Assembly: GCA_965658655.1 (NCBI GenBank)
Contig: CBFHTA010000001.1
Span: forward strand, 250,696-314,695
DNA length: 64,000 nucleotides
Direction: 5' to 3'
Origin: Candidatus Babelota bacterium
GTDB taxonomy: Bacteria; Babelota; Babeliae; Babelales; CAIQNR01
The position numbers and the translations under genes are program-made. The notes beneath the pieces were generated by a model. The model was not told where the DNA came from. It searched no databases and saw only the letters and a program-made list of their open reading frames with translations. Positions 11,302 through 55,666 of this stretch are shown here, piece by piece; the first letter of the stretch is position 1; every line of letters starts with the position of its first letter.

Positions 11302-12390
11302 ATGAAGAAGTTATTTTTACTATTAAGTTTATATGGAATGGCGATACAGGGCGGTTCGATTTCTGAACATAAAACTTTTGCTTCTCTAGTAGCAAAAGAT
11401 AAGATTCCAAAGGTTGTTAAAGGTGTTTTAAATTTGAAGGACTTGGATCTCGAAGGTCCGCTCAGAGCTCATGATTTTAAAAATATGCCTGATAAAGAGA
11501 AAGTAACAGCGATTTATTTCTATGCCAATAAGCTTACTCGAATTGAGCCAGGAGCCTTTGAAGGATTTACTGCTTTAAAAACACTGGGTCTTGGTAATAA
11601 TAAGATTACTGATATTGAATCAAAAACATTTGCAGGGCTTGCTAATTTGACAGCGCTTGATATGGCGAATAATAATATTACTCGAATTGAGCCAGGAGCC
11701 TTTGCTGAACTTACTGCTTTAAGAACATTGGGTCTTAGTAATAATAAGATTACTGATGTTGAATCAAAAACATTTGCAGGGCTTGCTAGTTTGACAACGC
11801 TTGATATGGCGAATAATAATATTACTCGAATTGAGCCAGGAGCCTTTGCTGAACTTACTGCTTTAAAACTTCTTCACCTTTCTTATAATGAGATTGCTCG
11901 CATTGAATCAAAAACATTTGAAGGGCTTGCTAGTCTCACTCATCTTAGTTTTACGGGTAATAAGATTAGTCATATTGAGAAAGAAGCTTTTGCTGAACTT
12001 ACCGCTCTACAGGAGCTTGCTCTTGCTCATAATAAGATTAGTCATGTTGCATCAAACACATTTAAAGGGCTTGCTGCTTTAGTAAGGCTTTATCTTTATA
12101 AAAATAACATCACCCATATTGAGAAAGGAGCTTTTACAGGACTCCCTGCTCTAAAAGAACTTGCTCTTTTTAGTAATAAAATTACCCATATTGAGAAAGG
12201 AGCTTTTGTTGGGCTTACTGCTTTAAGAAAGCTTAATCTTGGAAGTAATGAGATTACTCATATTGCAGAAGGCGTTTTTGGTGATCTTATTGGTTTAAAA
12301 TACCTGGACATTACGGACAACAAACTGTCTCTAGACAAAGAAAAAGCAATTAGGAAAGAGGTTCCTCAAGGTTGTATTGTAAGTTTTTAG
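11302..12390 (+). CDS. Secreted leucine-rich repeat protein (about eleven 24-residue repeats of the typical type)
   Basis: Signal peptide MKKLFLLLSLYGMAIQG. Repeated LxxLxLxxNkIxxIexxaFxgLxx units (LTALKTLGLGNNKITDIESKTFAG, LANLTALDMANNNITRIEPGAFAE, and so on). Confidence 0.85.
   Translation: MKKLFLLLSLYGMAIQGGSISEHKTFASLVAKDKIPKVVKGVLNLKDLDLEGPLRAHDFKNMPDKEKVTAIYFYANKLTRIEPGAFEGFTALKTLGLGNNKITDIESKTFAGLANLTALDMANNNITRIEPGAFAELTALRTLGLSNNKITDVESKTFAGLASLTTLDMANNNITRIEPGAFAELTALKLLHLSYNEIARIESKTFEGLASLTHLSFTGNKISHIEKEAFAELTALQELALAHNKISHVASNTFKGLAALVRLYLYKNNITHIEKGAFTGLPALKELALFSNKITHIEKGAFVGLTALRKLNLGSNEITHIAEGVFGDLIGLKYLDITDNKLSLDKEKAIRKEVPQGCIVSF
11575..11862. repeat. Near-identical 144-bp tandem DNA duplication (two LRR pairs) inside the LRR gene
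   Basis: tatggcgaataataatattactcgaattgagccaggagcctttgctgaacttactgctttaa occurs at 11661 and again at 11805 (period 144 bp), with only a few substitutions across the unit. Confidence 0.8.
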
Positions 12391-25446: not shown

Positions 25447-27156
25447 ATGGTAAATAAAACATTAGGTCAGCTGTTAGTTGAGAGCGGAGCAATTACGGAG
25501 GAACAAGCAAGAAAGTTCCAAGAAGAGGCTCAAAAAGCACACATTCCTTTTGCGCGTTATCTGTATGACAAACACTTGGTAGCAGAAGAATCTATTGCTC
25601 AAGCCTATGCAACTATGACTGGTCTTACCTTTCTTAACGATATAACAGACGAAATGGCAGATCCGCTTTTATTAGCAAAGGTACCTCTTAAGTTTTTGCG
25701 CGAGAACAGAGTGATTCCTATTAAAGATAAAGGCACTTCTCTAGTTACCGCTAACCCTACAGACTTTTCTCCTGTTGATGAACTTCAATTACTTTTTGGT
25801 AATGATGTAAAGATTGTAATCTCTACTCCCAAATCTATTCTTGATGCCCTTAATCATTATTATCCGCTTGAGGGTACCGACGAAATGATGGAAGATCTGG
25901 AGAAAGACGGTGATGCAGCAGATCTCTCTTTTGCAGACATTGACGAGAAAGACATTTTAAGTAGTGCCAACGATGCGCCTATTATTAAATTAGTTAACTA
26001 TATTCTTTTTCAAGCAGATAAAATGAATGCATCTGATGTGCACGTTGAACCTGGAGAGAAAGAAATTAGAATACGTTTTAGAGTTGACGGCCGCATGCAC
26101 CAATTCATGACAGTTCCTAAAAGAATGGAGGGCGCTGTTGCTTCTCGTATTAAAATTATGTCGAATTTAAACATTGCAGAAAAACGTAAACCTCAAGATG
26201 GGCGTATTGAAATTCGTATTGGTGACAAACGTATTGATCTTCGTGTTTCTTTTTTACCAGCGGTATATGGAGAAAGCGTTGTTATGCGTCTACTTGATAA
26301 AGACAAAGGGTTTTCTGAGTTAGACAATCTTGGTTTAAGTAAGCGAGACTACGAAGTAGTTACCCAAAGCATTGCTCGACCTAACGGAATATTCTTGGTG
26401 TCTGGGCCAACCGGTTCTGGTAAAACTACCACGCTGTATTCTATCTTGAGTCGCATTAATGTTCCTACGGTTAATGTTATTACGGTAGAAAACCCGGTTG
26501 AGTATCAGTTGCCTGGTATTACACAAGTACAAGTAGACCCTAAAGTAGACTTAACCTTTGCCAGCGCGCTTCGTGCAATTTTACGTCAAGATCCAGACAT
26601 TGTAATGATTGGTGAAACACGAGACCAAGAGACAGCACAGATTGCTATTCAAGCAGCATTAACTGGTCATTTAGTGTTAACAACCATTCATACTAACGAT
26701 GCTCCTTCTATTATCACTCGTTTAATAGACATGGGCATTGAACCGTTTTTAATTGCCTCTTCTATTGTTGCTGGTATGGCGCAACGTTTGGTTCGTAAAC
26801 TCGACCCTGCATGTAAAGAAGCATACAAACCATCAGAAGAAGTACTTAAAAGTTTAGGCATGGATCCGGCAAAGAACAAAAACGTTACCTTCTACCGACC
26901 AAAAGGGTGCAAGGAATGTAATATGATGGGGTATAAAGGTCGGCTTCCAATCTTTGAAGTTATGGACCTGACAGACTCTATCGCAGATCTTACTATGGCC
27001 CGAGCAGCTACACTTAAAATTAGGCAGCAGGCACAAAGAGATGGTATGACCACATTGCTTGATGATGGTATTAAGAAAATAAAAGAAGGCTTGACGAGTG
27101 TAGAAGAGGTTGTTTCTGTAGCAACTGTTTTTGATAATCCCGCAGATTCTGAATAA
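25447..27156 (+). CDS. Type II secretion / type IV pilus assembly ATPase (GspE/PilB family)
   Basis: N-terminal T2SSE_N-like domain (LGQLLVESGAITEEQ...). Walker A SGPTGSGKTTTLYS, Asp box and Walker B (DPDIVMIGETRD), His box LTGHLVLTTIHTN, and a Cys cluster (CKEAY...GCKECNMMGYKGR). Start at 25447 (GGAG 6 nt upstream). An alternative ATG lies at 25420. Confidence 0.9.
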   Translation: MVNKTLGQLLVESGAITEEQARKFQEEAQKAHIPFARYLYDKHLVAEESIAQAYATMTGLTFLNDITDEMADPLLLAKVPLKFLRENRVIPIKDKGTSLVTANPTDFSPVDELQLLFGNDVKIVISTPKSILDALNHYYPLEGTDEMMEDLEKDGDAADLSFADIDEKDILSSANDAPIIKLVNYILFQADKMNASDVHVEPGEKEIRIRFRVDGRMHQFMTVPKRMEGAVASRIKIMSNLNIAEKRKPQDGRIEIRIGDKRIDLRVSFLPAVYGESVVMRLLDKDKGFSELDNLGLSKRDYEVVTQSIARPNGIFLVSGPTGSGKTTTLYSILSRINVPTVNVITVENPVEYQLPGITQVQVDPKVDLTFASALRAILRQDPDIVMIGETRDQETAQIAIQAALTGHLVLTTIHTNDAPSIITRLIDMGIEPFLIASSIVAGMAQRLVRKLDPACKEAYKPSEEVLKSLGMDPAKNKNVTFYRPKGCKECNMMGYKGRLPIFEVMDLTDSIADLTMARAATLKIRQQAQRDGMTTLLDDGIKKIKEGLTSVEEVVSVATVFDNPADSE

Positions 27157-27251
27157 ATTTATTGGTTAAAGATTAATAATCTATTACGAAAAAAGTTTGA
27201 ATGATATAGTTCTATTTTTTGCTTAGGTATTTTTTATTATTCTATGTATTT

Positions 27252-27286
27252 AAAGCCCCATGAAAGATCGTAATTCATGGGGCTTT
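27252..27286. terminator. 13-bp perfect hairpin between convergent genes
   Basis: aaagccccatgaa / ttcatggggcttt with a 9-nt loop, 8 nt beyond the stop of 27294..28442. There is no long U tract beyond the stem, so terminator function is presumed rather than canonical. Confidence 0.55.
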
Positions 27287-27293
27287 AATGGTA

Positions 27294-28442
27294 TTAATTA
27301 GATTGATCGATATGGCGTGATTCTTCAGCAGCTGCAGCAGCAGGACCGGTTGAAGATTCCTCTTCATCTTTACTTTCATAGGGATAAATGAATGTATCGA
27401 GTTTTTGATTTATGTTCTCTGTACCGCATGAAGGGCATCTTAGAGGGCCTCGGTTGTTACTTTTCCATGTTGTAAATGCATCTTCTCCTACAAAGTTAAG
27501 GCAACAGCTTAGATAGTGTAAAGATTGGTCTTTTTTAAAAGACTCTAACATAATAGGACACGTGGATTGTTCTTTAATAGTATGTTGTTTGAGGATTGTT
27601 TTGATCTGATCGTTCCTTGTAAGTTGGTATGCATTTCTTCTTTTAAGATCAACTCTTTTATAGGGTGCTCCATTTTCTAGCAAAAATTTTACAATGGTAT
27701 GCTTTCCGGCATAGCAGGTTAATCCAAGAGGTGTTGTTTTTGTTCCATCAGGAGATGTTGCACCATCTTTGATATCGGCTCCGTTTTCTAGTAAAAATTT
27801 TGCAACAGTATGGTTGCCATTATAGCAGGCTAATCCAAAAGGTGTTATTTTTGTTCCATTAGCATATGTTGTACCATCTTTGATATCGGCTCCGTTTTCT
27901 AGTAAGAATTTTGCAATATCATACTTACCTTGAGAAGAGGCTAATCCAAAAGGTGTTGTTTTTGTTTTATCAGGAGATGTTTCACCGTTTGTGATATCTG
28001 CACTATGTGTTAATAATAAACCTACAATTTCTAGTTTGTTGTTTCGTATTGCTATGCTAAGAGGGCTTGTTATCATTCCATTCTTATAAATAGAACCTGT
28101 TTCTAGATTAACTCTGTTTTTTAATAGAATGCTTACTATCTTAGAATGACCATAACGGCATGCTTCAGCAAGAGGCGTTGTTTGTTCATCTTCACTAATA
28201 AAAGTTGGTTCATTAATTGGTGTTTTCTCTTTTATTAATTTTTCTACAGTATCTATATTTCCTGATTGACAAGCTGTTACCAGTGATTTTAAGGCAAAAT
28301 CTTTATCAATTTTTATTGATGCAGCTTCTTGATTACTGTTCTCTCTAGAAAGTTCACTTTTTTTATCATCAGGATTTCCTGTAAAAATAGACCCTGCATG
28401 TAAAAGAGCAAAAGAAAGGAATAGTAGTTTTTTGGTTTTCAT
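27294..28442 (-). CDS. Secreted ankyrin-repeat protein with C-terminal U-box/RING-like domain (paralog 1)
   Basis: Signal peptide MKTKKLLFLSFALLHAGSIFTG. About 6 ANK-like units of 37 aa (TPFGLACYNGNHTVAKFLLENGADIKDG). C-terminal module CPIMLESFKKDQSLHYLSCCLNF..FTTW..RCPSCG...LDTFIYPY, then the tail ESKDEEESS. Confidence 0.8.
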   Translation of the reverse strand: MKTKKLLFLSFALLHAGSIFTGNPDDKKSELSRENSNQEAASIKIDKDFALKSLVTACQSGNIDTVEKLIKEKTPINEPTFISEDEQTTPLAEACRYGHSKIVSILLKNRVNLETGSIYKNGMITSPLSIAIRNNKLEIVGLLLTHSADITNGETSPDKTKTTPFGLASSQGKYDIAKFLLENGADIKDGTTYANGTKITPFGLACYNGNHTVAKFLLENGADIKDGATSPDGTKTTPLGLTCYAGKHTIVKFLLENGAPYKRVDLKRRNAYQLTRNDQIKTILKQHTIKEQSTCPIMLESFKKDQSLHYLSCCLNFVGEDAFTTWKSNNRGPLRCPSCGTENINQKLDTFIYPYESKDEEESSTGPAAAAAEESRHIDQSN

Positions 28443-28604
28443 CTTGTATCTCCATTTTAATACTATATCATAAATTTATAATTCTAATTGTAATATATTT
28501 AGCATATTTGTCAATCGGCTATTTAAGCTTAAATAATACGTTTAGGGAAGTTTTGGTTGCAGAGTAAAGAATTGGCTTTGAGCTTAAGTGAGCTTGTTTA
28601 GCTA

Positions 28605-29888
28605 TCAGTGCTCTTTGAGATCTGAGGATTCTTCTTCATCTTTACTTTCATAGGGATAAATGAATGTATCGAGTTCTTGATTTATGTTTTCTGTACCGCA
28701 TGAAGGGCAGCTTAGAGGGCCTTGGTTGTTACTTTTCCATGTTGTAAATGTATCTTCTCCTACCCAGTCAGAGAATTCTTCAGCGCCTGTAAAGTTAGAA
28801 CAGCAATTTAGAAAGTGTAATTCTTCGTCTTTTTCAAAAGAAGATAAACGAATAGGGCATGTGGATTGTTCTTGAATAGCACGTTTTTTAATGAGTTCTC
28901 TAATTTGGTTCTTATTAATTTTTTGATCTTCACTATCTAGTTGATATGAATGAGCTACTTGATATGCATTACGGTCTTTAGATGTAACTCTCTTAAAAGA
29001 AACTCTTGGGTCATCAAGTAATGTTTTTACAGTATCAACATAACCCTCTTCAGAGGCAAGACTAAGCGCGGTCACTTGTTTTCCGTTAGGATAAGCATAA
29101 GCAAAAGCATTAGGTTCAATTCTTTGATTAGTAAGTAATGCTTGTACCGTAGCGGTACGGCCGTTATAAGAGGCAAGGCCAAGTGCGGTTATTCCTACTC
29201 CAGAAGTATTGATAAACTGATAAGCTGTGGCGTTAATTCTTTTGTCACCAAGGAGTGCTTTTGTAGCATCAGTATGGCCGTTTTGACAAGCAAATCCAAG
29301 AGCCGTCGCTTGTGCTCCATTAGGATTCATATGCTGATACATTGTGGGGTCAACTCTTTTGTCACCAAGGAGTGCTTTTGCAATATCAGTATGGCCTTTT
29401 TCACAAGCTAAACTAAGTGCGGTCAGTTTTTTTCCTTTAGGATGAGCATAAGCAAAAGCATTAGGTTCAATTCTTTTGTCATCAAGGAGTGCTTTTGCAA
29501 TATTAGTATGGCCTTTTTTGGTAGCAAGGCCAAGTGCGGTCATTTGTACCCCACTAGGATAAGTAAACTGAAAAGCATTAGGTTCAATTCTTTTATCAGC
29601 AAGTAGTGTTTTTACAGTGCTCATATAGCCTTCTTGAGTAGCAATGCCAAGCGCAGATATGTGTATTCCATCAGGTTCCGTTATTAATATATTGGGATCA
29701 AAGTCAAAAGACCCATTAAGTAGGCTTTGTATAGCTTTTATATCCTGGTTTTTACAGGCTTCAATAAACTTTATTTGATTGTGCATAGTTGATTTATCTG
29801 CACTTCCTGCATAAGAGTTATTGTCACTTGTAAAAATACAACCTGTGTACACCAAAGATAATCCAAAAAGAAGTAAGTTTTTATTCAT
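28605..29888 (-). CDS. Secreted ankyrin-repeat protein with C-terminal U-box/RING-like domain (paralog 2)
   Basis: Signal peptide MNKNLLLFGLSLVYTGCIF. About 7 units of 39 aa (LTALSLACEKGHTDIAKALLGDKRVDPTMY). C-terminal CPIRLSSFEKDEELHFLNCCSNF...FSDW...FTTW...SCPSCG...LDTFIYPYESKDEEESS. Confidence 0.8.
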   Translation of the reverse strand: MNKNLLLFGLSLVYTGCIFTSDNNSYAGSADKSTMHNQIKFIEACKNQDIKAIQSLLNGSFDFDPNILITEPDGIHISALGIATQEGYMSTVKTLLADKRIEPNAFQFTYPSGVQMTALGLATKKGHTNIAKALLDDKRIEPNAFAYAHPKGKKLTALSLACEKGHTDIAKALLGDKRVDPTMYQHMNPNGAQATALGFACQNGHTDATKALLGDKRINATAYQFINTSGVGITALGLASYNGRTATVQALLTNQRIEPNAFAYAYPNGKQVTALSLASEEGYVDTVKTLLDDPRVSFKRVTSKDRNAYQVAHSYQLDSEDQKINKNQIRELIKKRAIQEQSTCPIRLSSFEKDEELHFLNCCSNFTGAEEFSDWVGEDTFTTWKSNNQGPLSCPSCGTENINQELDTFIYPYESKDEEESSDLKEH

Positions 29889-29894
29889 TATAAC

Positions 29895-29972
29895 CTTTAT
29901 TAATATGATATTATTTTGTGTGATAACATTTTTAATTTAGTTATCACACAAAATAATATCATATTAATAAAG
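29895..29972. repeat. Perfect 33-bp inverted repeat (12-nt loop) between paralogs 2 and 3
   Basis: 29895-29927 ctttattaatatgatattattttgtgtgataac is the exact reverse complement of 29940-29972. The stem ends 6 nt from the paralog-2 ATG and covers part of its AAAGG SD-like sequence. Confidence 0.95.
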
Positions 29973-29988
29973 ATAAAAAAGTTTCAGA

Positions 29989-32097
29989 TTAATCAATATC
30001 CATAACTGGCTCATCATCCATAACTGGCTCACCTGAGGATTCTTCTTCATCTTTACTTTCATAAGGATAAATGAATGTATCGAGTTCTGTTGGTATGTTT
30101 GGTTTTTGGCATGCAGGGCAAATGACAGTACCATGATATCGCATTCTTTGTCCTACCCAGTCAGAGAATCCTGCAGTGCCTGTAAAGTTAGAACAGCAAT
30201 TTAGAAAGTGTAATTCTTCGTCTTTTTCAAAAGGCGCTAAAGTAATAGGATCTTCGGATTGTTCTTGAATAGCACGTTTTTTAATAAGTTCTTTGATTTG
30301 ATTTTTATTAACTTTTTGATCTTCACTAGTTGCTGGATATGCATTAGCTATTTTGTATGCATTATGTCCTGCAGATGTAACTCTCTTAAAAGAAACTCTT
30401 GGGTCATCAAGTAATGCTTTTATAGTATTAATATGACCATTTATAGAGGCAATACCAAGTGCAGAAAACTGCCTTCCGTCATCGCCCTTCATCGCAACAG
30501 CATTAGGTTCAACTCTTGGGTCAGCAAGTAACGCTTGTGCCAGAGCAGCACGATCATAACGAGCAGCAAGGCCAAGTGCAGTGGTTTGTGATCCATTAGG
30601 AAAAGTAGCCTGAAAACCATTAGGTTCAACTCTTGGGTCAGCAAGTAACGATTTTATAGTATTAATATTACCATTTATAGAGGCAAGACCAAGTGCAGAA
30701 AAATCCCTTCCTTTATCGTCCTTAATCGCACAAGCATTAGGCTCAACTTTTGGGTCAGCAAGTAACGCTTGTGCCAGAGCAGCACGGTCATAACGAGCAG
30801 CAAGGCCAAGTGCAGTGATTTGTGATCCATCAGGAAAAGTAGCCTGAAAACCATTAGGTTCAACTCTTTCATCAGCAAGTAATGCTTGTGCCGAAGCGGT
30901 CTGGTTTGCGATAGAAGCAGCTCCAAGTGGGGTGACTTCTGCTTTATATTTTGTCTGCGCAACAGCATTAGGTTTAATTCTTTCATCAGCAAGTAATGCT
31001 TTTACCGTATTAATATGACCATTTTGAGAGGCAATAGAAAGTGCTGTATGCCTTGTTCCTTGAGGATCAATAATTAAAGAATTGGGGTTAGTTCTTTCAT
31101 CAGCAAGGAGTGCTTTTACCGTATTAATATGACCATTTTGAGAGGCAAGGCCAAGTGCCGTATGCCTTCTTCCTTGAGGATCAATAAAGGACAAAGAATT
31201 GGGGTTAGTTCTTTCATCAGCAAGGAGTGCTTTTACAGTAGCAACATGACCTTTTTTAACAGCAAGGCCAAGTGCCGTATGCCTTTTTCCTTGAGGATCA
31301 ATAAAGGAAAAAACATTGGGGTTAGTTCTTTCATCAGCAAGGAGTGCTGTTACAGTATCTGTATCACCTTTTATAGAGGCAATGCCAAGTGCCGCCTGTT
31401 TTCTTCCATTAGAAGCAATTCCGGAAACAGCATTAGGGTCAATTCTTGGGTGAGCAAGGAGTGCTGTTACAGTATCTGTATCACCTTCTATAGAGGCAAT
31501 GCTAAGTGCTGCATGTTTTGTTCCGTTAGGATCAATAAAGGAAAAGGCGTTAGGGTCAATTCTTCGGTCAGCAAGGAGTGCTTGTACAGTAGCAGTACGC
31601 CGATTTTGACAGGCAATACCGAGTGCATTACATTGTGATTGGTTTTTATCAAGATATTGATAAGCGTTAGGGTCAATTCTTCGGTCAGCAAGGAGTGCTT
31701 GTACAGTAGCAGTATGGCCATTTTGAGAGGCAACACCGAGTGCGGTAAGCTGTGTTCCATTAGGATGAATAGATTGATAAACTGTAGGGTCAATTCTTGG
31801 GTGCTTAAGGAGTGCTTGTACAGTCGCAGTATGGCCGTGACGAGAGGCCACACCAAGCCCAGACACTTGTATTCCATCAGGTTCCATTATTAACATATTG
31901 GGATCAAAGTCAAAAGACCCATTGAGTAAGCTTTGTAGAGCTTTTATATCCTGGTTTTTACAGGCTTCAATAAACTTTATTTGATTGTGCATAGTTGATT
32001 CATCTGCACTTCCTGCATAAGGGTTATTGTCACTTGTAAAAATACAACCTGTATACACCAAAGATAACCCAAGAAAAAGTAGGCTTTTAACTTTCAT
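29989..32097 (-). CDS. Secreted ankyrin-repeat protein with C-terminal U-box-like domain (paralog 3, expanded array)
   Basis: Start set at MKVKSLLFLGLSLVYTGCIF. The 12 nt upstream (atggagatcaaa) align with the GGAG 5'-UTR of paralog 1. About 14 units of 38-39 aa. C-terminal DPITLAPFEKDEELHFLNCCSNF..FSDW...ICPACQ...LDTFIYPYESKDEEESS. Confidence 0.8.
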   Translation of the reverse strand: MKVKSLLFLGLSLVYTGCIFTSDNNPYAGSADESTMHNQIKFIEACKNQDIKALQSLLNGSFDFDPNMLIMEPDGIQVSGLGVASRHGHTATVQALLKHPRIDPTVYQSIHPNGTQLTALGVASQNGHTATVQALLADRRIDPNAYQYLDKNQSQCNALGIACQNRRTATVQALLADRRIDPNAFSFIDPNGTKHAALSIASIEGDTDTVTALLAHPRIDPNAVSGIASNGRKQAALGIASIKGDTDTVTALLADERTNPNVFSFIDPQGKRHTALGLAVKKGHVATVKALLADERTNPNSLSFIDPQGRRHTALGLASQNGHINTVKALLADERTNPNSLIIDPQGTRHTALSIASQNGHINTVKALLADERIKPNAVAQTKYKAEVTPLGAASIANQTASAQALLADERVEPNGFQATFPDGSQITALGLAARYDRAALAQALLADPKVEPNACAIKDDKGRDFSALGLASINGNINTIKSLLADPRVEPNGFQATFPNGSQTTALGLAARYDRAALAQALLADPRVEPNAVAMKGDDGRQFSALGIASINGHINTIKALLDDPRVSFKRVTSAGHNAYKIANAYPATSEDQKVNKNQIKELIKKRAIQEQSEDPITLAPFEKDEELHFLNCCSNFTGTAGFSDWVGQRMRYHGTVICPACQKPNIPTELDTFIYPYESKDEEESSGEPVMDDEPVMDID
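30967..31431. repeat. Tandem 114/117-bp DNA repeats (one ANK unit each) within paralog 3
   Basis: att[ag]gg[gt]tta[ga]ttctttcatcagcaag[gt]a[ga]tgcttttac recurs at 30967, 31081, 31198 and 31315. Confidence 0.8.
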
Positions 32098-32198
32098 TTT
32101 GATCTCCATTTTAAATATTTTTATTATAATTCTAATTGTAAATAAGCGATATGGTCGTTGTCAACAGTATATGTACATTAAGCATTGTGCAAAGGTGC

Positions 32199-32251
32199 TT
32201 TTATAAAGAGATAAGCTTAAAAAATTATTTTTAGTTTATCTCTTTATAAAA
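32199..32251. repeat. 16-bp perfect inverted repeat in the divergent intergenic region between paralog 3 and the tamB-like gene
   Basis: ttttataaagagataa (32199-32214) and ttatctctttataaaa (32236-32251) with a 21-nt AT-rich loop. Confidence 0.85.
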
Positions 32252-32361
32252 TTTATAATTGTAGCCTTTAAGGCTCAGGCCTTTTTTATCTATTTTTATC
32301 TTTTTCTCTGGCCGAGAGAATGTTTTTTCGATAAGCTCTAGGCATCATAAAGGGTCCCTTC

Positions 32362-35082
32362 ATGCGTAATTTTCGTTTACTGTCAAAAATAGTTTTATCT
32401 CTTTTTCTAGGTCTTTTCTTGGCTTTGGCATGGTTTCAATTTGATGAACGATTTATTGCGCTCGCAAATAGTGGTATGGAAAAAGTTTTTGAAAAACAGT
32501 TGAATTGTCAATTTAAAGGAAAGGTGGTTCGAGTAAATCCGTTTTTATTAACCATTCATTTTGAAGATGTACAAGTAGAACCTTTTGATATGAGTAATAA
32601 CTGGTCTTGGAGTGTTGCTCAAATGACCATGAAGCTTTCATTTCTTGAGTATCTTTACTACGGTGCTTTTGGGCTACACGTAAATCTTACAACATTGCAT
32701 TCCTTCTCTGGGCTCAAAAAAAATGGTGTTCCTATGGTAAGCGATCATTTGCTAGATCTTTTTGCAGGAGCTAACTTTAGTGTGCCCATTTCATTTCAAA
32801 CAGTTGCAATTGTTGATGGTTCGTTACTTGTTGACGATGTTGATAGAAAAGTTTCATTCATATGTCATTGGAATAGTAATGCAGGGAAAGCGGGCAGAGA
32901 TTTTAAGTCTAAGTTTTATCTTTCAGATACCTCTTTAACGTTAGATAATAAAAAAATATTTGAGCAATTTAGTGGACAAATAACATTTGATGCTTTGCAT
33001 GGCAATGCGTTTATTAGGATGGCAACCGATGCTATGTTTATGTTGCCGCAGTTACCAGAAGATCAACGAGATTGTTACGTTCTTGGTTCTTGGGATAAGA
33101 ATGCAGGAAGCTTTGTGGTTTACAATCAAGATAGAACATTGTCCTTTGTTCCTATTGAATTGGTGATGGGTAAAAAGGGTCTGTTGGTGAATGCTGAAGG
33201 GGTGATTTTATTAGAATATTTAAAGCGATTTTTTTATCCGCATATATCACAAACACTTAAGGGCATGGGTTACTTAAAAGTTTCTGGAGATCTTAACGGA
33301 TCGTTGCAGACAAAAGTGCGTATGCAAGATGTGGGTTATGGTAGTTATTTGTTAGATGAATTGTATGGTGATGTAATGCATGTTTCTTCTGAATGGCGTG
33401 GCTCAATTGGTGCCACTAAAAATAATGCTGCAGTAACTGGTACATGGTGGTGGTCTGATAGTGTTAAACAGGGAGTAGTACAATTGGTTAATAGAAATAC
33501 CTTACCTTTTTTAACAAGTACTTATTGGCAGACTTTGCCAGGAAGAACTGCGCTGCAGATTGTATTTAAAAACGATGGTAATGGTAAATTAGAGTATGTT
33601 ACACAGCTTGCGCATAAAAAAACTGAGCATACTGTAAACAGTTCAGGTACGGTGACACATACGAATACCACCATTAAATGTAGCGGATCAGTGGGAGACA
33701 ACACTTATACAGCAACGGTAAATACCAAGCCGATGTGGCTAAAGTCATTTATATATGCCAATGGTGCCAAGAAGAAATTGATCACTTTAACTACTAATAA
33801 ACAAAATAAATTTTCTTTGTCTTTTGATTATGATGCTGCCCAAATGTTTGCGCTTGATTGGTTAGATCTTGATCTATATGGGCAAGGAGTTTTTGATGTT
33901 TCAGGTTGTATGGAATTTCCTAAATTTGTGGGAACACTTTCCTTTAAGAATGGAACTATTCGTCCAGCAGGGATGTATAATTTTATCTCAGATATTACAG
34001 CTCGATTTATTGGTGATGTTAATAAAAAAGAATGTAGTATAAAAGATACACTTATTACACTTCATCAAGGGAAAATAGTAAGTGACAAAATTTCCTGCTT
34101 CTTTAACGATGATGGTTCAGTTTATGGATTGCATAGTCCATTTAGGTTTGAAAGTTGTTTTTTAAATTGGAGTAAATACTTATACGCTATTTGTACCGGG
34201 AGCTTTGTGCTTCAAGTTGGATCGGGGGTAGAGAATGCTCTTGATGGATTCCTTGTGTTTGAACGTTCACAATTTAAAGAAAATATCTTTGCTCTTCAGA
34301 CACAAAAAAGTGCAATTAACGCTTTACCAAGACAACATGCTTTAAGTTCTTTATCTTTAAACCTTGGAGTATCTACGCAGGCTCCTTTACTTGTGTCTAC
34401 ACCTCATTTACAAACACAGGCAATTTTAGATTGGTTTTTAACTGGAAAATTAGGTGCTCCAGAGTTGCAAGGATCATTGCAATTAAAAGGTGGAAAACTG
34501 GTATTTCCTGGACAAACATTGGCTATTTCTCAAGGTAAGCTTACGTTTGCTCCTACGCATTCTGAAGATCCTCTTCTTGATTTAACAGCACAAGCGCGTA
34601 TTAAAAAATATTTGGTAACCATGAATATTGGTGGAACCATTAAAGAACCGGAAGTTCTTTTACAAGCAACACCAGGGCTTTCTGAAGAGCAAATTATTAT
34701 GTTACTACTGACGGGAAGTGAGCAAGAATCTTTTAATATTATGGTTCCATCGCTGGTTATGCGTAACCTAGAAACTATTCTTTTTGGTCCATCAAAAGCG
34801 TTGGGCCATGCTTCGAACACGCTTTCCTCTTGGTTAAAGCCTTTAGAAAAAGTAACGTTTGTACCTCGATTTAATGATCAAACAGGAACGGGAGGCTTTA
34901 AGGGAGTGCTTGAGGTAGAAGTAAGTAAGCGATTGCGCGCAGTTCTGGAGAAAGACTTTAGTTTGGCAGAAGATACTGCGGCAGAAATAGAGTATCTTGC
35001 TTCCGATGATGTAAGTTTTAAAGTTAATAGAGATGAGCGTGGCGATATTGGCGCTGAGGTAGAGATGCGATTTAAATTTTAA
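32362..35082 (+). CDS. tamB: TamB/AsmA-like translocation and assembly module protein
   Basis: N-terminal membrane anchor (IVLSLFLGLFLALAWF). About 900 aa, beta-rich. C-terminal DUF490-like region (DPLLDLTAQARIKKYLVTMNIGGTIKEPEVLLQATPGLSEEQIIMLLLTGS). Confidence 0.7.
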   Translation: MRNFRLLSKIVLSLFLGLFLALAWFQFDERFIALANSGMEKVFEKQLNCQFKGKVVRVNPFLLTIHFEDVQVEPFDMSNNWSWSVAQMTMKLSFLEYLYYGAFGLHVNLTTLHSFSGLKKNGVPMVSDHLLDLFAGANFSVPISFQTVAIVDGSLLVDDVDRKVSFICHWNSNAGKAGRDFKSKFYLSDTSLTLDNKKIFEQFSGQITFDALHGNAFIRMATDAMFMLPQLPEDQRDCYVLGSWDKNAGSFVVYNQDRTLSFVPIELVMGKKGLLVNAEGVILLEYLKRFFYPHISQTLKGMGYLKVSGDLNGSLQTKVRMQDVGYGSYLLDELYGDVMHVSSEWRGSIGATKNNAAVTGTWWWSDSVKQGVVQLVNRNTLPFLTSTYWQTLPGRTALQIVFKNDGNGKLEYVTQLAHKKTEHTVNSSGTVTHTNTTIKCSGSVGDNTYTATVNTKPMWLKSFIYANGAKKKLITLTTNKQNKFSLSFDYDAAQMFALDWLDLDLYGQGVFDVSGCMEFPKFVGTLSFKNGTIRPAGMYNFISDITARFIGDVNKKECSIKDTLITLHQGKIVSDKISCFFNDDGSVYGLHSPFRFESCFLNWSKYLYAICTGSFVLQVGSGVENALDGFLVFERSQFKENIFALQTQKSAINALPRQHALSSLSLNLGVSTQAPLLVSTPHLQTQAILDWFLTGKLGAPELQGSLQLKGGKLVFPGQTLAISQGKLTFAPTHSEDPLLDLTAQARIKKYLVTMNIGGTIKEPEVLLQATPGLSEEQIIMLLLTGSEQESFNIMVPSLVMRNLETILFGPSKALGHASNTLSSWLKPLEKVTFVPRFNDQTGTGGFKGVLEVEVSKRLRAVLEKDFSLAEDTAAEIEYLASDDVSFKVNRDERGDIGAEVEMRFKF

Positions 35083-54245: not shown

Positions 54246-54912
54246 CTTTTTCTCCCTTTTTTAGTTTTGTAAGAAAAGTGGTTCTATGGATAACGGATGG
54301 CTGATGAGTGTGGATTCCTGTTTGATGAGCCTTTGATCCATATCCTTTATTTGAGCTTAAATCGTATCCAGGAAAAAAGCTATCCATGCGTTTCATGAGT
54401 TCATCTCGCTTAACTTTAGCTAGAATAGAGGCTGCGGCTATAGAGATAGACTTACTTTCTCCCTTAGTAAAAGAGGCTATTCTTATTGAGCTTAAATCTC
54501 CAGCTAAGCTTAACGGCATAGCATCGATTAAAATGAGCTCCGGCCTTGGGGCCGAATTATGAGAGAAGAGCCCATAGAGGGCCTTTTTCATCGCTAGTTG
54601 AGTGGCTTTATAGATATTAAGCTTATCTACTAAATGGGCATCTACAATGCCAAAACTATGCCAAGAATTGTCGTAAATCCACGCTGCGGCTTCATTCCGC
54701 TTATTTTCAGTCAGAATTTTTGAGTCTTTGAGTAAAGGGTGGGTCTTAAAGGGTTTTAAGATCACCGCCGATGTTACAACTGGTCCAGCTAGACATCCTC
54801 GGCCAACTTCATCAATTCCGCACAAATAAGCCTGTAAAGACCAGATTTTCTTCTCAAATTGAGAGGGGTTTAATGAAGATGAGCTTAACATTTTTTCTTT
54901 TCCATTTGACAA
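54211..54912 (-). CDS. rnhB: Ribonuclease HII
   Basis: Active-site motif GIDEVGRGCLAGPVV, plus later DSK and ASILAKV segments. Confidence 0.9.
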   Translation of the reverse strand: MSNGKEKMLSSSSLNPSQFEKKIWSLQAYLCGIDEVGRGCLAGPVVTSAVILKPFKTHPLLKDSKILTENKRNEAAAWIYDNSWHSFGIVDAHLVDKLNIYKATQLAMKKALYGLFSHNSAPRPELILIDAMPLSLAGDLSSIRIASFTKGESKSISIAAASILAKVKRDELMKRMDSFFPGYDLSSNKGYGSKAHQTGIHTHQPSVIHRTTFLTKLKKGEKDGDKARQASLF

Positions 54913-54994
54913 GCCTGCACAATCCTGTATTCTATTAGAAAATACGCAGTGTTAATAAAACAGTAACCAAAGCTAACAAATTAAGGAGTTGAGC

Positions 54995-55666
54995 ATGTCA
55001 TCAACAGCCCTTAGAGTCAAGGAGCTTCTGAGAGAAAAAGGATGGACAACCAAGATCTTAGCCGAGAAAACTGGTATGTCTGAAAGTTACTTGACGCATA
55101 TAAAAAATGGAACAAGACGTTGGAATGAAGATTCTCTTAAGAAATTGGCCAACGCATTTGAGATTAGCCCAATAGATCTTTTTGCCGAACGCAGAAAGAG
55201 AACAGATAATATAGACAGCAATGTGAGCATGCCAGAGAAATCTGATATTGACCTTAAAGTACAGGTAGTACCGGTTGTGGGAGAAATTCCTTCAAATCCA
55301 TCTCCTTATAATAATCAGCTTATGCAGACTACTACAGGTTATAAAGATATTTTTGTCCCTACCCTTAATACAACCGATGCATCTATGTTTGCTTTGGGAG
55401 TAGATAATAATCTCTTAGCGCCAGCTTTTGTAAAGGGTGATTTACTTATTATCTCTCCAGAAGTATGGACTCGGTCAGGTGATGTTGCAGCTGTAGAATA
55501 TGGTAATGATACGCCAATTAAGGCTATTATGCAGGTCACCTTCAGTGAAGATTTTATTGTTCTTGAGTCTCCAAATAGAAAGCAAGCTCCAGCTGCTTTA
55601 GTGAGAGGTAAAGATCATTTCAGAATTATTGGAAGAGTGGTTCAGCGAATTCAGAAATTTGCTTAA
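54995..55666 (+). CDS. XRE-family HTH regulator with C-terminal LexA/S24-like domain
   Basis: HTH (LRVKELLREKGWTTKILAEKTGMSESYLTHIKNGTR). C-terminal S24-like layout (VPVVGEIPS...ASMFALGV...FVKGDLLIISPE...GDVAAVEY...IKAIM...IVLESPN). ATG at 54995 sits 6 nt after aaggag. Confidence 0.6.
   Translation: MSSTALRVKELLREKGWTTKILAEKTGMSESYLTHIKNGTRRWNEDSLKKLANAFEISPIDLFAERRKRTDNIDSNVSMPEKSDIDLKVQVVPVVGEIPSNPSPYNNQLMQTTTGYKDIFVPTLNTTDASMFALGVDNNLLAPAFVKGDLLIISPEVWTRSGDVAAVEYGNDTPIKAIMQVTFSEDFIVLESPNRKQAPAALVRGKDHFRIIGRVVQRIQKFA

What the first reader, a model, noticed from the sequence alone, without database searches (positions are those of the whole stretch)
29895..29972. Perfect 33-bp inverted repeat that covers the ribosome-binding region of ANK-U-box paralog 2
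29895-29927 and 29940-29972 are exact reverse complements (33/33) around a 12-nt loop. On the coding (minus) strand the stem starts 16 nt after the paralog-3 stop. Its 3' arm ends in ...UUAAUAAAG, only 6 nt before the paralog-2 AUG, so it includes most of the only SD-like sequence (AAAGG). A U-run precedes the stem rather than following it, so this is not a canonical intrinsic terminator. A perfect 33-bp stem (6 G/C pairs) is very unlikely by chance. It could attenuate read-through from paralog 3, mask the RBS (an AT-rich stem would melt with temperature), bind a dimeric regulator, or be a recombination footprint from the duplication.
Basis: seen in the sequence. Interest (0 to 1): 0.6.

Follow-up and report, generated by a model that had tools for sequence, protein, structure and literature searches.

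The report
Perfect hairpin between duplicated effector genes
A real, one-of-a-kind 78-base perfect hairpin fills the gap between two tandem copies of a secreted ankyrin/RING-like gene in an uncultured Dependentiae bacterium; it sits where related genes carry a promoter and ribosome-binding site, so it looks like a young rearrangement scar that locks away the second copy's ribosome-binding site rather than a conserved regulator.

Summary
Bases 29895-29927 and 29940-29972 are exact reverse complements (33/33) around a 12-nt loop, far beyond chance. As minus-strand RNA the element folds at -43 kcal/mol and buries the AAAGG upstream of the par2 AUG.

The genome is a Dependentiae (Babeliales) genome. 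The three ANK/RING-like genes lie between pilB and tamB.

Every other family member examined has a conserved TTGACA...TTACAATTAGAATTAT promoter and/or a GGAG ribosome-binding site: par3, par1 and homologues in three related metagenomic lineages. In one relative, identical tandem copies are joined by a 24-nt GGAG spacer. None has a hairpin. Only par2 lacks these signals and has the hairpin instead.

No second copy of the arm was found in the window, GTDB genomes, JGI metagenomes, IMG/VR, plasmids or phages.

- It is not a thermometer: still folded at 80 °C.
- It is not a canonical terminator: AT-rich stem, no U-tract.
- It matches no Rfam family.
- No MITE evidence: no target duplication, no other copies.

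Best reading: a young, lineage-specific palindrome made by a template-switch-type rearrangement at the paralog junction. Its predicted effect is constitutive masking of par2's degraded ribosome-binding site on the par3-par2 co-transcript.

Conservation is absent and function is untested, so interest is modest.

The parts
29940..29972 (-). 5' arm of the hairpin (RNA sense = minus strand), 33 nt
   Evidence: Exact reverse complement of 29895-29927.
29928..29939 (-). 12-nt loop (UAAAUUAAAAAU in RNA sense)
29895..29927 (-). 3' arm of the hairpin. Its last bases (...UAAUAAAG) carry most of the SD-like AAAGG.
29893..29974 (-). Full predicted RNA helix: 35 bp, i.e. the 33 perfect pairs plus a G·U and an A-U pair at the base. 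-43.3 kcal/mol at 37 °C.
   Evidence: ViennaRNA folds.
29894..29898 (-). Residual Shine-Dalgarno-like AAAGG of par2, fully inside the helix. It corresponds to the family's GGAGAT with 3 nt missing.
   Evidence: P(unpaired) 0.006-0.02 at 4-42 °C. Comparison by eye with par3, par1, L089, L090 and L093 leaders.
28605..29888 (-). par2, 427 aa: signal-peptide-like N-terminus, ANK repeats, Cys-rich RING/U-box-like C-terminus. Intact ORF with no promoter of its own.
   Evidence: The protein is in the public collection from one NCBI contig of 521,004 bp.
29989..32109 (-). par3, 706 aa as listed; the true start is probably the second ATG at 32097. It is the upstream gene whose transcript would run into the hairpin.
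   Evidence: The GGAG lies 6 nt before the ATG at 32097, as in par1 and the homologues.
27294..28442 (-). par1, 382 aa, the third paralog, with its own promoter and GGAG
32135..32164 (-). par3 promoter TTGACA-18-TACAAT (11/12), within the block TTACAATTAGAATTATAA shared with par1 and L090
28487..28514 (-). par1 promoter TTGACA-16-TACAAT (11/12)
29958..29987 (-). Weak promoter-like match CTGAAA-18-TATGAT (9/12, chance level) that overlaps the 5' arm. It is collinear with the promoter of the closest relative, L089, at p = 0.07. This is a lead only.
29680..29877 (-). par2 segment 93-100% identical to par3 32083-31890, a recent conversion tract that starts next to the hairpin. The rest of the gene is about 65-75% identical.
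28640..28767 (-). par2 segment 93-100% identical to par1 27492-27370, where par3 is divergent. par2 is therefore a mosaic.
27250..27288 (.). Canonical GC-rich bidirectional terminator between the convergent genes pilB and par1. It marks the end of the array's transcription.

Best explanation
The element is a young palindrome, found in this lineage but not in the three related lineages examined. It sits exactly at the junction between the tandem paralogs par3 and par2.

Origin (inferred). It was most likely created in one step by a replication template switch or templated inverted insertion during rearrangement of the array. It occupies the place where every other member of the gene family carries a sigma-70-type promoter and/or a GGAG ribosome-binding site.

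Consequence (partly computed, partly inferred). par2 has no promoter of its own, so it can only be transcribed by read-through from the par3 promoter. On that RNA the 78 nt fold into a 33-35 bp helix of about -43 kcal/mol. The helix permanently buries the already degraded ribosome-binding site (AAAGG) 4-6 nt before the par2 AUG. It therefore acts as a constitutive block on par2 translation, not a temperature-responsive one. As side effects it should shield the 3' end of par3 mRNA from exonucleases, and it offers a perfect double-stranded substrate for RNase III.

Shown here: the structure, its uniqueness, its energy, the loss of the family promoter and SD, and its absence from relatives.

Inferred: the template-switch origin, co-transcription, the translational block, and any RNase III processing.
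For: - Structure and energy.
- No usable promoter for par2, whereas par3 and par1 have 11/12 promoters.
- The promoter and leader regions of par3, par1, L089 and L090 are mutually similar (p <= 0.013 for 9 of 10 pairs; L089 vs L090b p = 0.26). The par2 upstream region resembles none of them (best p = 0.07).
- Nucleotide homology between par3 and par2 begins at the AUG.
- The gene array sits in the same pilB-tamB locus in relatives L089 (PilB 86% identical) and L090 (TamB 62%), without any inverted repeat of 13 bp or more.
- In L093, identical tandem units (1068 nt) are joined by only 24 nt carrying GGAG. Promoter-less head-to-tail junctions are therefore the normal product of duplication in this family, and they have no hairpin.
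- No second copy of the arm was found anywhere that could be searched.
- Perfect 33/33 pairing is what a recent single event gives. Template switching is documented to create perfect stems in one mutation (PMC8794818).
- Other long perfect repeats in Dependentiae loci are GC-core terminators with A/T tracts between convergent genes, a different kind of object.
Against: - The donor sequence of the arms could not be identified. There is no significant similarity to family promoters, leaders, gene tails or junctions, so the template-switch origin is not demonstrated.
- No strain-level relative was available, so 'young' rests on perfection and on absence from relatives that are only 62-86% identical in neighbouring proteins.
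- par2 is an intact 427-codon ORF with recent conversion tracts. That is unexpected for a long-silenced gene and leaves room for a selected function of the hairpin.
- The AUG and the 4 nt before it stay unpaired, so some SD-independent initiation cannot be excluded.
- No expression data exist.
- The rest of the source genome (the contig is 521 kb) was not searchable for further copies.
Confidence: 0.45

Rival explanations
1. A selected cis-regulatory RNA gate. In this reading the hairpin is maintained because it makes par2 expression conditional. One version: RNase III cuts the perfect helix, separating the par3 and par2 mRNAs and freeing the ribosome-binding site. Another version: only transcripts that start at a weak promoter inside the 5' arm (TATGAT at 29963-29958, start near 29951) lack the 5' arm and can be translated, while read-through transcripts stay silent.
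For: - The helix is 33-35 uninterrupted base pairs, longer than the roughly two helical turns that bacterial RNase III needs (established knowledge; structure).
- par2 is an intact ORF.
- A 9/12 promoter-like match overlaps the 5' arm, and the flank plus 5' arm align collinearly with the true promoter of the closest relative L089 (27 nt, p = 0.07).
- Perfect pairing could be kept up by repeated template-switch correction (PMC8794818).
Against: - There is no conservation. The three related lineages with the same gene family have no hairpin.
- The promoter match is at chance level: 20 found against 17.4 expected in the region. The p = 0.07 is uncorrected for five comparisons.
- No rnc gene lies in the window, although most bacteria have one.
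- No covariation can be tested on a single sequence.
Confidence: 0.2
2. A miniature inverted-repeat mobile element (MITE-like, essentially two terminal inverted repeats) or another foreign insertion that landed between par3 and par2.
For: The size (78 bp) and the long terminal inverted repeats fit small bacterial MITEs. The arm sequence has no detectable relation to the surrounding family sequences. The rest of the genome could not be searched.
Against: - No other copy in 64 kb, even at low stringency.
- No exact 22-mer match in 185,579 species-representative genomes.
- Only unrelated single-arm chance matches in JGI metagenomes and IMG/VR.
- Only chance AT-rich hits in plasmids and phages.
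- No target-site duplication flanks either the 33-nt or the 40-nt arms (sequence).
- No transposase or integrase in the window.
- A simple insertion would have left the family promoter upstream, but only 16 nt separate the par3 stop from the stem.
Confidence: 0.1
3. A non-canonical terminator or attenuator, and 3'-end stabiliser, of par3. In this reading it was originally the 3' hairpin of the ancestral gene and came to lie next to the par2 AUG when a promoter-less copy was duplicated behind it.
For: - It starts 16 nt after the par3 stop and is the most stable 3'-flank structure in the window.
- Promoter-less head-to-tail junctions do arise in this family (L093).
- The tail after the stem is AU-rich (UUAUAAU).
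Against: - No U-tract follows the stem and only 6 of 33 pairs are G/C. The terminator scan does not call it.
- This genome and its relatives use canonical GC-stem plus U-tract terminators.
- No comparable hairpin follows the homologous genes in L089, L090 or L093.
- No second copy follows par2 or par1.
Confidence: 0.1
4. A DNA-level recombination element. The palindrome extrudes as a hairpin or cruciform, stalls forks or is cut, and so promotes segmental gene conversion between a promoter-less donor copy (par2) and the expressed paralogs. The analogue is the inverted repeats at the vlsE / silent-cassette junction of Lyme-disease Borrelia.
For: - par2 is promoter-less yet intact.
- It shares a 93-100% identical 5' segment with par3 that starts about 10-25 nt from the hairpin, and a 93-100% identical 3' segment with par1.
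- In vls systems the conserved features are inverted repeats at the junction, a promoter-less copy carrying the 5' end of the expressed gene, and gene conversion. The repeat sequence itself is not conserved there (PMC11499132).
Against: - The arrangement is head-to-tail, not head-to-head.
- There is only one candidate donor, and it keeps a start codon and a full-length ORF.
- There is no evidence of ongoing variation.
- Mosaic paralogs arise by ordinary gene conversion without any palindrome.
- Relatives with the same family lack the repeat.
Confidence: 0.07
5. An assembly artefact, i.e. a spurious fold-back at a repeat-rich spot.
For: The region 27391-31970 lies between repeats that break an independent short-read assembly of the same organism. 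That assembly therefore does not confirm the hairpin.
Against: - The palindrome is short and internal to a 521-kb contig.
- It is flanked by unique sequence and two intact ORFs with sensible spacing.
- Known fold-back artefacts are kilobase-scale and sit at contig ends (general knowledge).
- The flanks agree at 99.99-100% with the independent assembly.
Confidence: 0.05
6. An operator: a palindromic binding site for a dimeric DNA-binding regulator.
For: It has perfect dyad symmetry. TGTGA...TCACA-like motifs flank the loop (sequence).
Against: - Arms of 33 bp with half-site centres about 45 bp apart are far outside known operator geometry.
- There is no promoter to regulate.
- There is no second site and no conservation in relatives.
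Confidence: 0.03

Closest known systems
Ribosome-binding-site-sequestering mRNA hairpins, such as translational operators or attenuators and intercistronic stem-loops that give differential expression within operons
   Same: The 3' strand of the stem contains the SD-like sequence a few nucleotides before the AUG. The element lies between two co-directional cistrons. A stable 3' hairpin should also protect the upstream cistron from 3' exonucleases.
   Different: Known regulatory examples are conserved, usually imperfect, and 5-20 kcal/mol strong, so that they can open. This one is perfect, -43 kcal/mol, a singleton, and absent from all relatives. The upstream ORF ends 14-16 nt before the stem, so a terminating ribosome cannot open it.
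RNA thermometers (ROSE, fourU)
   Same: SD sequestration in an AU-rich stem.
   Different: Thermometers melt between about 30 and 42 °C. Here P(unpaired SD) stays at 0.02 or below up to 42 °C, and the stem is still folded at 80 °C. It is not a member.
Hairpins and palindromes created by replication template switching, including quasipalindrome correction (PMC8794818; PMC7202029)
   Same: A perfect reverse-complement copy separated by a short spacer. It appears in one lineage only, in a region with other signs of replication slippage and recombination: an 18-nt tandem duplication at 29993-30028 and mosaic paralogs.
   Different: The ancestral (donor) arm could not be identified, so the four switch points cannot be reconstructed.
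Bacterial MITEs and palindromic repeat families (Correia, RUP, ERIC, REP/BIME, Rickettsia palindromic elements)
   Same: Small size, terminal inverted repeats, intergenic position next to a start codon.
   Different: Those are multi-copy families, often with target duplications. Here there is a single copy in everything searchable, and no target duplication.
Inverted repeats at the vlsE / silent-cassette junction of Lyme-disease Borrelia (PMC11499132)
   Same: An inverted repeat at the junction between an expressed gene and a promoter-less copy that shares its 5' end. There is evidence of gene conversion between copies. The repeat sequence is not conserved between strains.
   Different: The vls loci are head-to-head, with many contiguous silent cassettes, on a linear plasmid. 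Part of the repeat there is the mirrored 5' end of the gene. Here the genes are head-to-tail, with one full-length copy on the chromosome.
Rho-independent terminators of Dependentiae, for example window 27250-27288, L013 1000-1047 and L021 5052-5105
   Same: Perfect stem-loops in intergenic DNA.
   Different: Those have GC-rich cores flanked by A- and T-tracts and sit between convergent genes. This one is 82% A/T, has no downstream U-tract, and sits between co-directional genes.

Membership tests
Rho-independent (intrinsic) terminator | G+C-rich stem | tested here: not met
   6 of 33 pairs are G/C. Not called by the terminator scan.
Rho-independent (intrinsic) terminator | U-tract immediately 3' of the stem | tested here: not met
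   The tail is GUUAUAAUGAAU. The U-run lies 5' of the stem, and the plus-strand tail is AUAAAAAAG.
RNA thermometer | SD paired at low temperature | tested here: met
   P(unpaired AAAGG) is 0.006-0.01 at 4-25 °C.
RNA thermometer | Stem melts within the physiological range | tested here: not met
   P(unpaired) is 0.017 at 37 °C, 0.021 at 42 °C and 0.26 at 80 °C. The hairpin alone is -43.3 kcal/mol at 37 °C and -6.9 at 80 °C.
MITE / dispersed palindromic repeat family | Several copies dispersed in the genome | tested here: inconclusive
   No other copy in the 64-kb window at up to 3 mismatches or by word-7 BLAST. None in GTDB representatives, JGI metagenomes, IMG/VR, plasmids or phages. The remaining roughly 460 kb or more of the source contig could not be searched.
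MITE / dispersed palindromic repeat family | Target-site duplication flanking the terminal repeats | tested here: not met
   The flanks are ...ATAAC|CTTT and AAAG|ATAAA for the 33-nt arms, and ...TTCA| and |AGTT for the 40-nt arms. Neither gives a direct repeat abutting the ends.
Integron attC site | Core sites RYYYAAC / GTTRRRY at the outer ends, extrahelical bases, nearby integrase | tested here: not met
   The outer ends are CTTTATT / AATAAAG. GATAAC / GTTATC lie at the loop, not at the ends. Pairing is perfect with no bulges. No integrase in the window.
Rfam RNA families | Match at the gathering score | tested here: not met
   Only sub-threshold miRNA-precursor look-alikes (21-23 bits against gathering scores of 90-140, E 0.4-1). 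At gathering threshold the whole window yields only two tRNAs.
RNase III substrate | Uninterrupted double-stranded RNA of about 20 bp or more | tested here: met
   Predicted 33-35 bp perfect helix. This is a prediction only.
RNase III substrate | Cleavage by the organism's RNase III | not testable with these tools
   No rnc gene in the window and no RNA data.
Template-switch-generated hairpin | Perfect reverse-complement copy next to its template, present in one lineage and absent from sister lineages | tested here: met
   33/33 pairing. No inverted repeat of 13 bp or more at the homologous loci L089, L090/L091 and L093.
Template-switch-generated hairpin | One arm identifiable as the ancestral sequence | tested here: inconclusive
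   The best similarity is flank plus 5' arm against the L089 promoter spacer and -10 region, p = 0.07 uncorrected. All other comparisons give p > 0.06.
vls-like gene-conversion locus | Promoter-less copy sharing the 5' end of an expressed gene, with an inverted repeat at the junction | tested here: met
   par2 has no promoter. 29877-29680 is 93-100% identical to par3. The repeat lies at the junction.
vls-like gene-conversion locus | Head-to-head arrangement and a contiguous array of silent cassettes | tested here: not met
   All three genes are head-to-tail on the minus strand, and par2 is a single full-length ORF.
RING / U-box domain (the flanking proteins) | Significant match to a RING/U-box profile or fold | tested here: inconclusive
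   - Pfam zf-RING_2 scores E = 0.008 and 16.8 bits, against a cutoff of 27.3, in par1 only.
- No PDB sequence match.
- The AlphaFold model is unusable, pLDDT 44.
- The distant family member P0005 shows a Cys/His pattern that reads like a RING (CGVC...CC...HLHC...CVHC) (by eye).

The most novel reading that the evidence does not exclude
The palindrome, the promoter-less but intact par2, and the patchwork identity of par2 to both expressed neighbours might together form a small cassette-type diversification system for secreted ANK/RING-like host-manipulation proteins. In this reading the palindrome is a fork-stalling or cruciform element that triggers segmental gene conversion, and par2 is a translationally silenced donor. 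That would be a chromosomal, head-to-tail analogue of the Borrelia vls junction repeats, in an intracellular parasite of protists.
Probability: 0.07. Interest if true: 0.75.

Novelty: new member of a known kind. Interest (0 to 1): 0.3.

Why it matters
If the best reading holds, this is a clean natural snapshot of how a long, perfect RNA hairpin is born in a single rearrangement, and of how it immediately rewires expression of a freshly duplicated effector gene. The duplicate would have lost its promoter, had its ribosome-binding site clipped and buried, and become a silent copy that still exchanges sequence with its neighbours. That bears on how effector arsenals expand and are tuned in Dependentiae, a phylum known almost only from metagenomes. 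It also bears on the general question of where structured RNA elements come from. It does not reveal a new conserved regulatory class. With one sequence and no expression data, the functional claim remains a prediction.

Tried and rejected
- Rfam, permissive on 27000-32500 and at gathering threshold on the whole window: only hairpin-shaped miRNA look-alikes below threshold.
- Thermometer idea: rejected by folding from 4 to 80 °C.
- Dispersed copies. A 22-mer of the arm gave 0 hits in GTDB genomes. It gave 4 hits in JGI metagenomes and 1 in IMG/VR, which are two unrelated single-arm chance matches with no partner arm. The outer 22-mer gave 0 hits in IMG/VR. Sensitive BLASTN against plasmids and phages gave only AT-rich chance hits. 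The best, a Priestia plasmid at 76% over 81 nt, is not a palindrome.
- Tracing the arms to a source. Local alignments with shuffle controls were run against the par3 and par1 upstream regions, the promoters and leaders of L089 and L090, and the gene tails and junctions of L093, L089, L090, par1, par2 and par3. None was significant; the best values were p = 0.06-0.10 uncorrected. An eye-catching 10-mer, ATTAATAAAG, shared with the L093 junction, and an 11-mer shared with the ANK repeats, were set aside as chance.
- The search for homologous proteins with the C-terminal domain profile returned nothing, although par2 itself is in the collection. The full HMMER scan was what found the four relatives.
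- Exact-protein look-ups of par2 and par3 found no contig.
- AlphaFold on the C-terminal domain (3-sequence alignment) gave pLDDT 44, so no fold search was run. A PDB sequence search gave no hit.
- Translational coupling by a terminating ribosome was rejected, because the par3 stop lies 14-16 nt before the helix (inference from ribosome footprint size).
- attC, DnaA-box and CRP-site resemblances (GATAAC/GTTATC, TGTGA...TCACA) were checked by eye. They fail on position or spacing.
- The pilB-tamB gap as a general insertion hot spot was rejected. In more distant relatives the extra ORFs there are plus-strand genes that continue after pilB (two of them begin with pilin-like leader sequences, by eye), not effectors.
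Full report
**1. The observation.** The plus-strand segments 29895-29927 and 29940-29972 are exact reverse complements (33/33), separated by the 12-nt loop 29928-29939. With three mismatches the symmetry extends to 40-nt arms, 29888-29979.
- 6 G/C pairs;
- 16 nt between the par3 stop (29991-29989) and the stem;
- 6 nt between the stem and the par2 AUG (29888);
- a U-run before the stem and none after it.

Chance is excluded. The arm matches only itself and its partner, against 0 of 100 shuffles. The minus-strand RNA folds at -45.3 kcal/mol with z = -10.7. It is the longest inverted repeat in the window and in about 470 kb of related genomes. It is also the most stable 3'-flank structure of about 58 genes in the window: -43.8 kcal/mol, against a median of -16.6.

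**2. Genomic setting.** The window is chromosomal backbone of a Dependentiae (TM6, Babeliales) bacterium. The closest species-representative genomes share 55-68% PilB identity and carry Dependentiae/Babeliales titles. Housekeeping genes surround the site (ftsA, ftsZ, secA, hisS, pilB, tamB, rluD, mgtE, mutL), with no transposase or integrase.

Three paralogs lie head-to-tail on the minus strand: par3 (32109-29989), par2 (29888-28605) and par1 (28442-27294). Each has a signal-peptide-like N-terminus, ankyrin repeats and a Cys-rich C-terminal domain. Secreted ankyrin proteins are the hallmark effector class of this phylum (PMC6561590).

The order hisS-yraN-bamD-pilB-tamB-pld-rluD-mgtE is conserved in 24 Dependentiae loci. 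In the three closest GTDB genomes pilB is followed directly by tamB. The 5.2-kb ANK array is therefore an insertion in that gap.

**3. The gene family and its normal expression signals.** A full HMMER scan of 1.84 billion representative proteins with the C-terminal domain found only par2 itself and four relatives. par2 comes from one NCBI contig of 521 kb. The contexts of the relatives are informative.
- L089 (PilB 86%, HisS 89% and TamB 77% identical to the window) has a family gene in the same pilB-tamB gap.
- L090/L091 (TamB 62%) has one gene next to tamB, then a dead 5' remnant, then a second paralog.
- L093 is a 1209-nt contig with a 141-nt terminal overlap. It is therefore a tandem array with a 1068-nt unit, whose copies are joined by only 24 nt, TAAAGAACTTAAATGGAGATAAAA.

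par3, par1, L089 and both L090 genes have a TTGACA(A) -35 element and a -10 block (TTACAATTAGAATTAT in par3, par1 and L090). All except the second L090 gene have GGAG 6-8 nt before the AUG. These upstream regions are significantly similar to each other: p <= 0.013 for 9 of 10 pairs, with L089 vs L090b the exception at p = 0.26. None of these loci contains an inverted repeat of 13 bp or more.

**4. What is different at par2.**
- Nucleotide homology between par3 and par2 begins at the AUG.
- The 100-nt spacer holds no promoter better than chance level, whereas par3 and par1 have 11/12 matches.
- The spacer shows no significant similarity to any family upstream region (best p = 0.07).
- The family's GGAGAT is reduced to GG, giving AAAGG.
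- The hairpin takes up 78 of the 100 nt.

Only par2 has lost the family's expression signals, and the hairpin stands in their place.

par2 is also a mosaic. Segment 29877-29680 is 93-100% identical to par3. Segment 28767-28640 is 93-100% identical to par1 where par3 differs. The rest is about 65-75% identical. The par3 tail carries an 18-nt tandem duplication. The array is recombinationally active.

**5. What the hairpin can and cannot do.**
- Folded alone it is -43.3 kcal/mol at 37 °C and still -6.9 at 80 °C. The probability that AAAGG is unpaired is 0.006-0.02 from 4 to 42 °C and 0.26 at 80 °C. The thermometer idea is rejected. RBS masking on any transcript that contains both arms is strongly predicted.
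- The leaders of par3 and par1 are open, with P(unpaired) 0.44-0.53.
- It is not a canonical terminator. The stem is AT-rich and no U-tract follows it on either strand. This genome and its relatives use ordinary GC-stem plus U-tract terminators.
- It matches no Rfam family.
- The par3 stop lies 14-16 nt before the helix, so a terminating ribosome would not open it. This is an inference.
- A 33-35 bp perfect RNA duplex is a textbook RNase III substrate. That is established knowledge; cleavage was not tested and no rnc gene lies in the window.

**6. Is it a mobile or repeated element?** No evidence supports this.
- No second copy in the window, even with word-7 BLAST.
- No exact 22-mer match in 185,579 representative genomes.
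- Only unrelated single-arm matches in JGI metagenomes and IMG/VR.
- Only chance hits in plasmids and phages.
- No target-site duplication.

The limit of this test is that the rest of the source genome could not be searched.

**7. Origin.** Four things fit a single recent event at the paralog junction: the perfect arms, the position exactly at the homology breakpoint, absence from three related lineages, and a family in which duplication normally leaves short plain junctions (L093). Replication template switching is documented to create perfect stems in one mutation and to re-perfect existing ones (PMC8794818).

My own rough estimate: at the roughly 3-5% divergence seen in the young par3/par2 tract, about one in five 33-bp stems would still be perfect. 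Perfection alone therefore does not prove selection.

The donor arm could not be identified. The one lead is that the flank plus 5' arm align with the spacer and -10 region of the L089 promoter (27 nt, p = 0.07 uncorrected). This is collinear with the weak CTGAAA-18-TATGAT match at 29987-29958. If that is real, the 5' arm is a decayed family promoter and the 3' arm is its inverted copy, overwriting the old leader up to the SD.

**8. Verdict on mechanism.** Best supported (0.45): a young rearrangement-born palindrome. Its effect is to leave par2 dependent on read-through from par3 and to lock its residual RBS in a helix that cannot open. par2 would then be a silent or very weakly translated copy. 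Secondary effects would be 3' protection of par3 mRNA and possible RNase III processing.

Rivals:
- a selected RNase III- or promoter-origin-dependent gate (0.2);
- a MITE-like insertion (0.1);
- a non-canonical attenuator or old 3' hairpin (0.1);
- a palindrome that promotes gene conversion, like the Borrelia vls junction repeats (0.07; PMC11499132);
- an assembly artefact (0.05);
- an operator (0.03).

An independent short-read assembly confirms the flanks at 99.99-100% but breaks at the paralog repeats, so it neither confirms nor refutes the palindrome.

**9. Novelty and score.** The kinds involved are known: RBS-sequestering intercistronic hairpins and template-switch palindromes. This is a new and unusually extreme example in a poorly known phylum, with no conservation and no expression data. 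Interest is 0.3. It would rise if strain comparisons caught the birth event, or if par2 proved to be a silent donor in a cassette-type diversification system.

Noticed in passing
window 32097-32109: The listed par3 start (ATG at 32109) is probably wrong. The sequence AUGGAGAUCAAAAUG places GGAG 6 nt before the second ATG (32097), exactly as in par1, L089, L090 and L093. The first 'ATG' is part of the ribosome-binding site, and par3 is then 702 aa.
   Followed up: partly
window 32199-32251 and 32270-32291: The second-longest inverted repeat of the window (24-nt arms, 92%, AT-rich) lies 35-87 nt upstream of the par3 -35 box, in the divergent par3/tamB spacer. Just beyond it is an orphan plus-strand terminator-like site (AAGGCTCAGGCCTTTTTT) with no gene to terminate. 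That site may be the old pilB terminator left behind when the ANK array was inserted, or the end of a small RNA.
   Followed up: partly
window 28605-29888 versus 29989-32109 and 27294-28442: par2 is a patchwork. Segments 29877-29680 and 28935-28775 are 80-100% identical to par3. Segment 28767-28640 is 93-100% identical to par1 where par3 is divergent. The remainder is about 65-75% identical. This indicates recent segmental gene conversion among the three paralogs.
   Followed up: yes
window 29993-30028: An 18-nt tandem duplication (89% identical) in the par3 tail encodes EPVMDD / EPVMDI just before the stop. It is a slippage event 20 nt from the hairpin.
   Followed up: no
window 27157-32361; loci L003-L005, L089, L090: The ANK/RING-like array is an insertion in the otherwise conserved pilB-tamB gap. 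It is absent in the three closest GTDB genomes (pilB is directly followed by tamB). It is present at the same place in two metagenomic relatives (L089, L090).
   Followed up: yes
L093 1-1209: The contig has a 141-nt exact terminal overlap. It is therefore a collapsed tandem array of (near-)identical family genes with a 1068-nt unit and a 24-nt GGAG-bearing junction. This is the 'plain' version of the par3-par2 junction.
   Followed up: yes
L090 5550-5610: A dead 5' fragment of a family gene (AATGGAATTTTTATGAATAAAAAACTATTACTTTCACTTGG..., stop after about 16 codons) lies between two intact paralogs. It is evidence of birth-and-death turnover in these arrays.
   Followed up: no
proteins P0001-P0005: The C-terminal domain family is tiny: five proteins among 1.84 billion cluster representatives, all singletons. 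One member, P0005 from a Babeliales MAG, keeps a Cys/His pattern that reads like a RING. In par3 the first Cys is lost. 'U-box' is a guess, and RING-derived seems more apt.
   Followed up: partly
tool behaviour: The word-indexed protein search and the exact-contig look-up did not return par2, although the same sequence is the representative of a cluster in the collection. Negative results from those two tools for this genome should not be read as absence.
   Followed up: yes
window 48430-50238 and 50307-52442; also 11302-12390: Two tandem leucine-rich-repeat paralogs lie on the minus strand with a 68-nt spacer, and a third LRR gene lies elsewhere in the window. This is a second family of likely host-interaction proteins expanding by tandem duplication.
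   Followed up: no
window 54989-55666: A LexA-like protein (HTH plus Peptidase_S24) in a reduced intracellular genome. It lies close to rnhB (54211-54912), and mutL is at 45735-47498.
   Followed up: no
window 38556-38837: tRNA-Lys(UUU) and tRNA-Glu(UUC) are the only RNA genes detected in the window.
   Followed up: no
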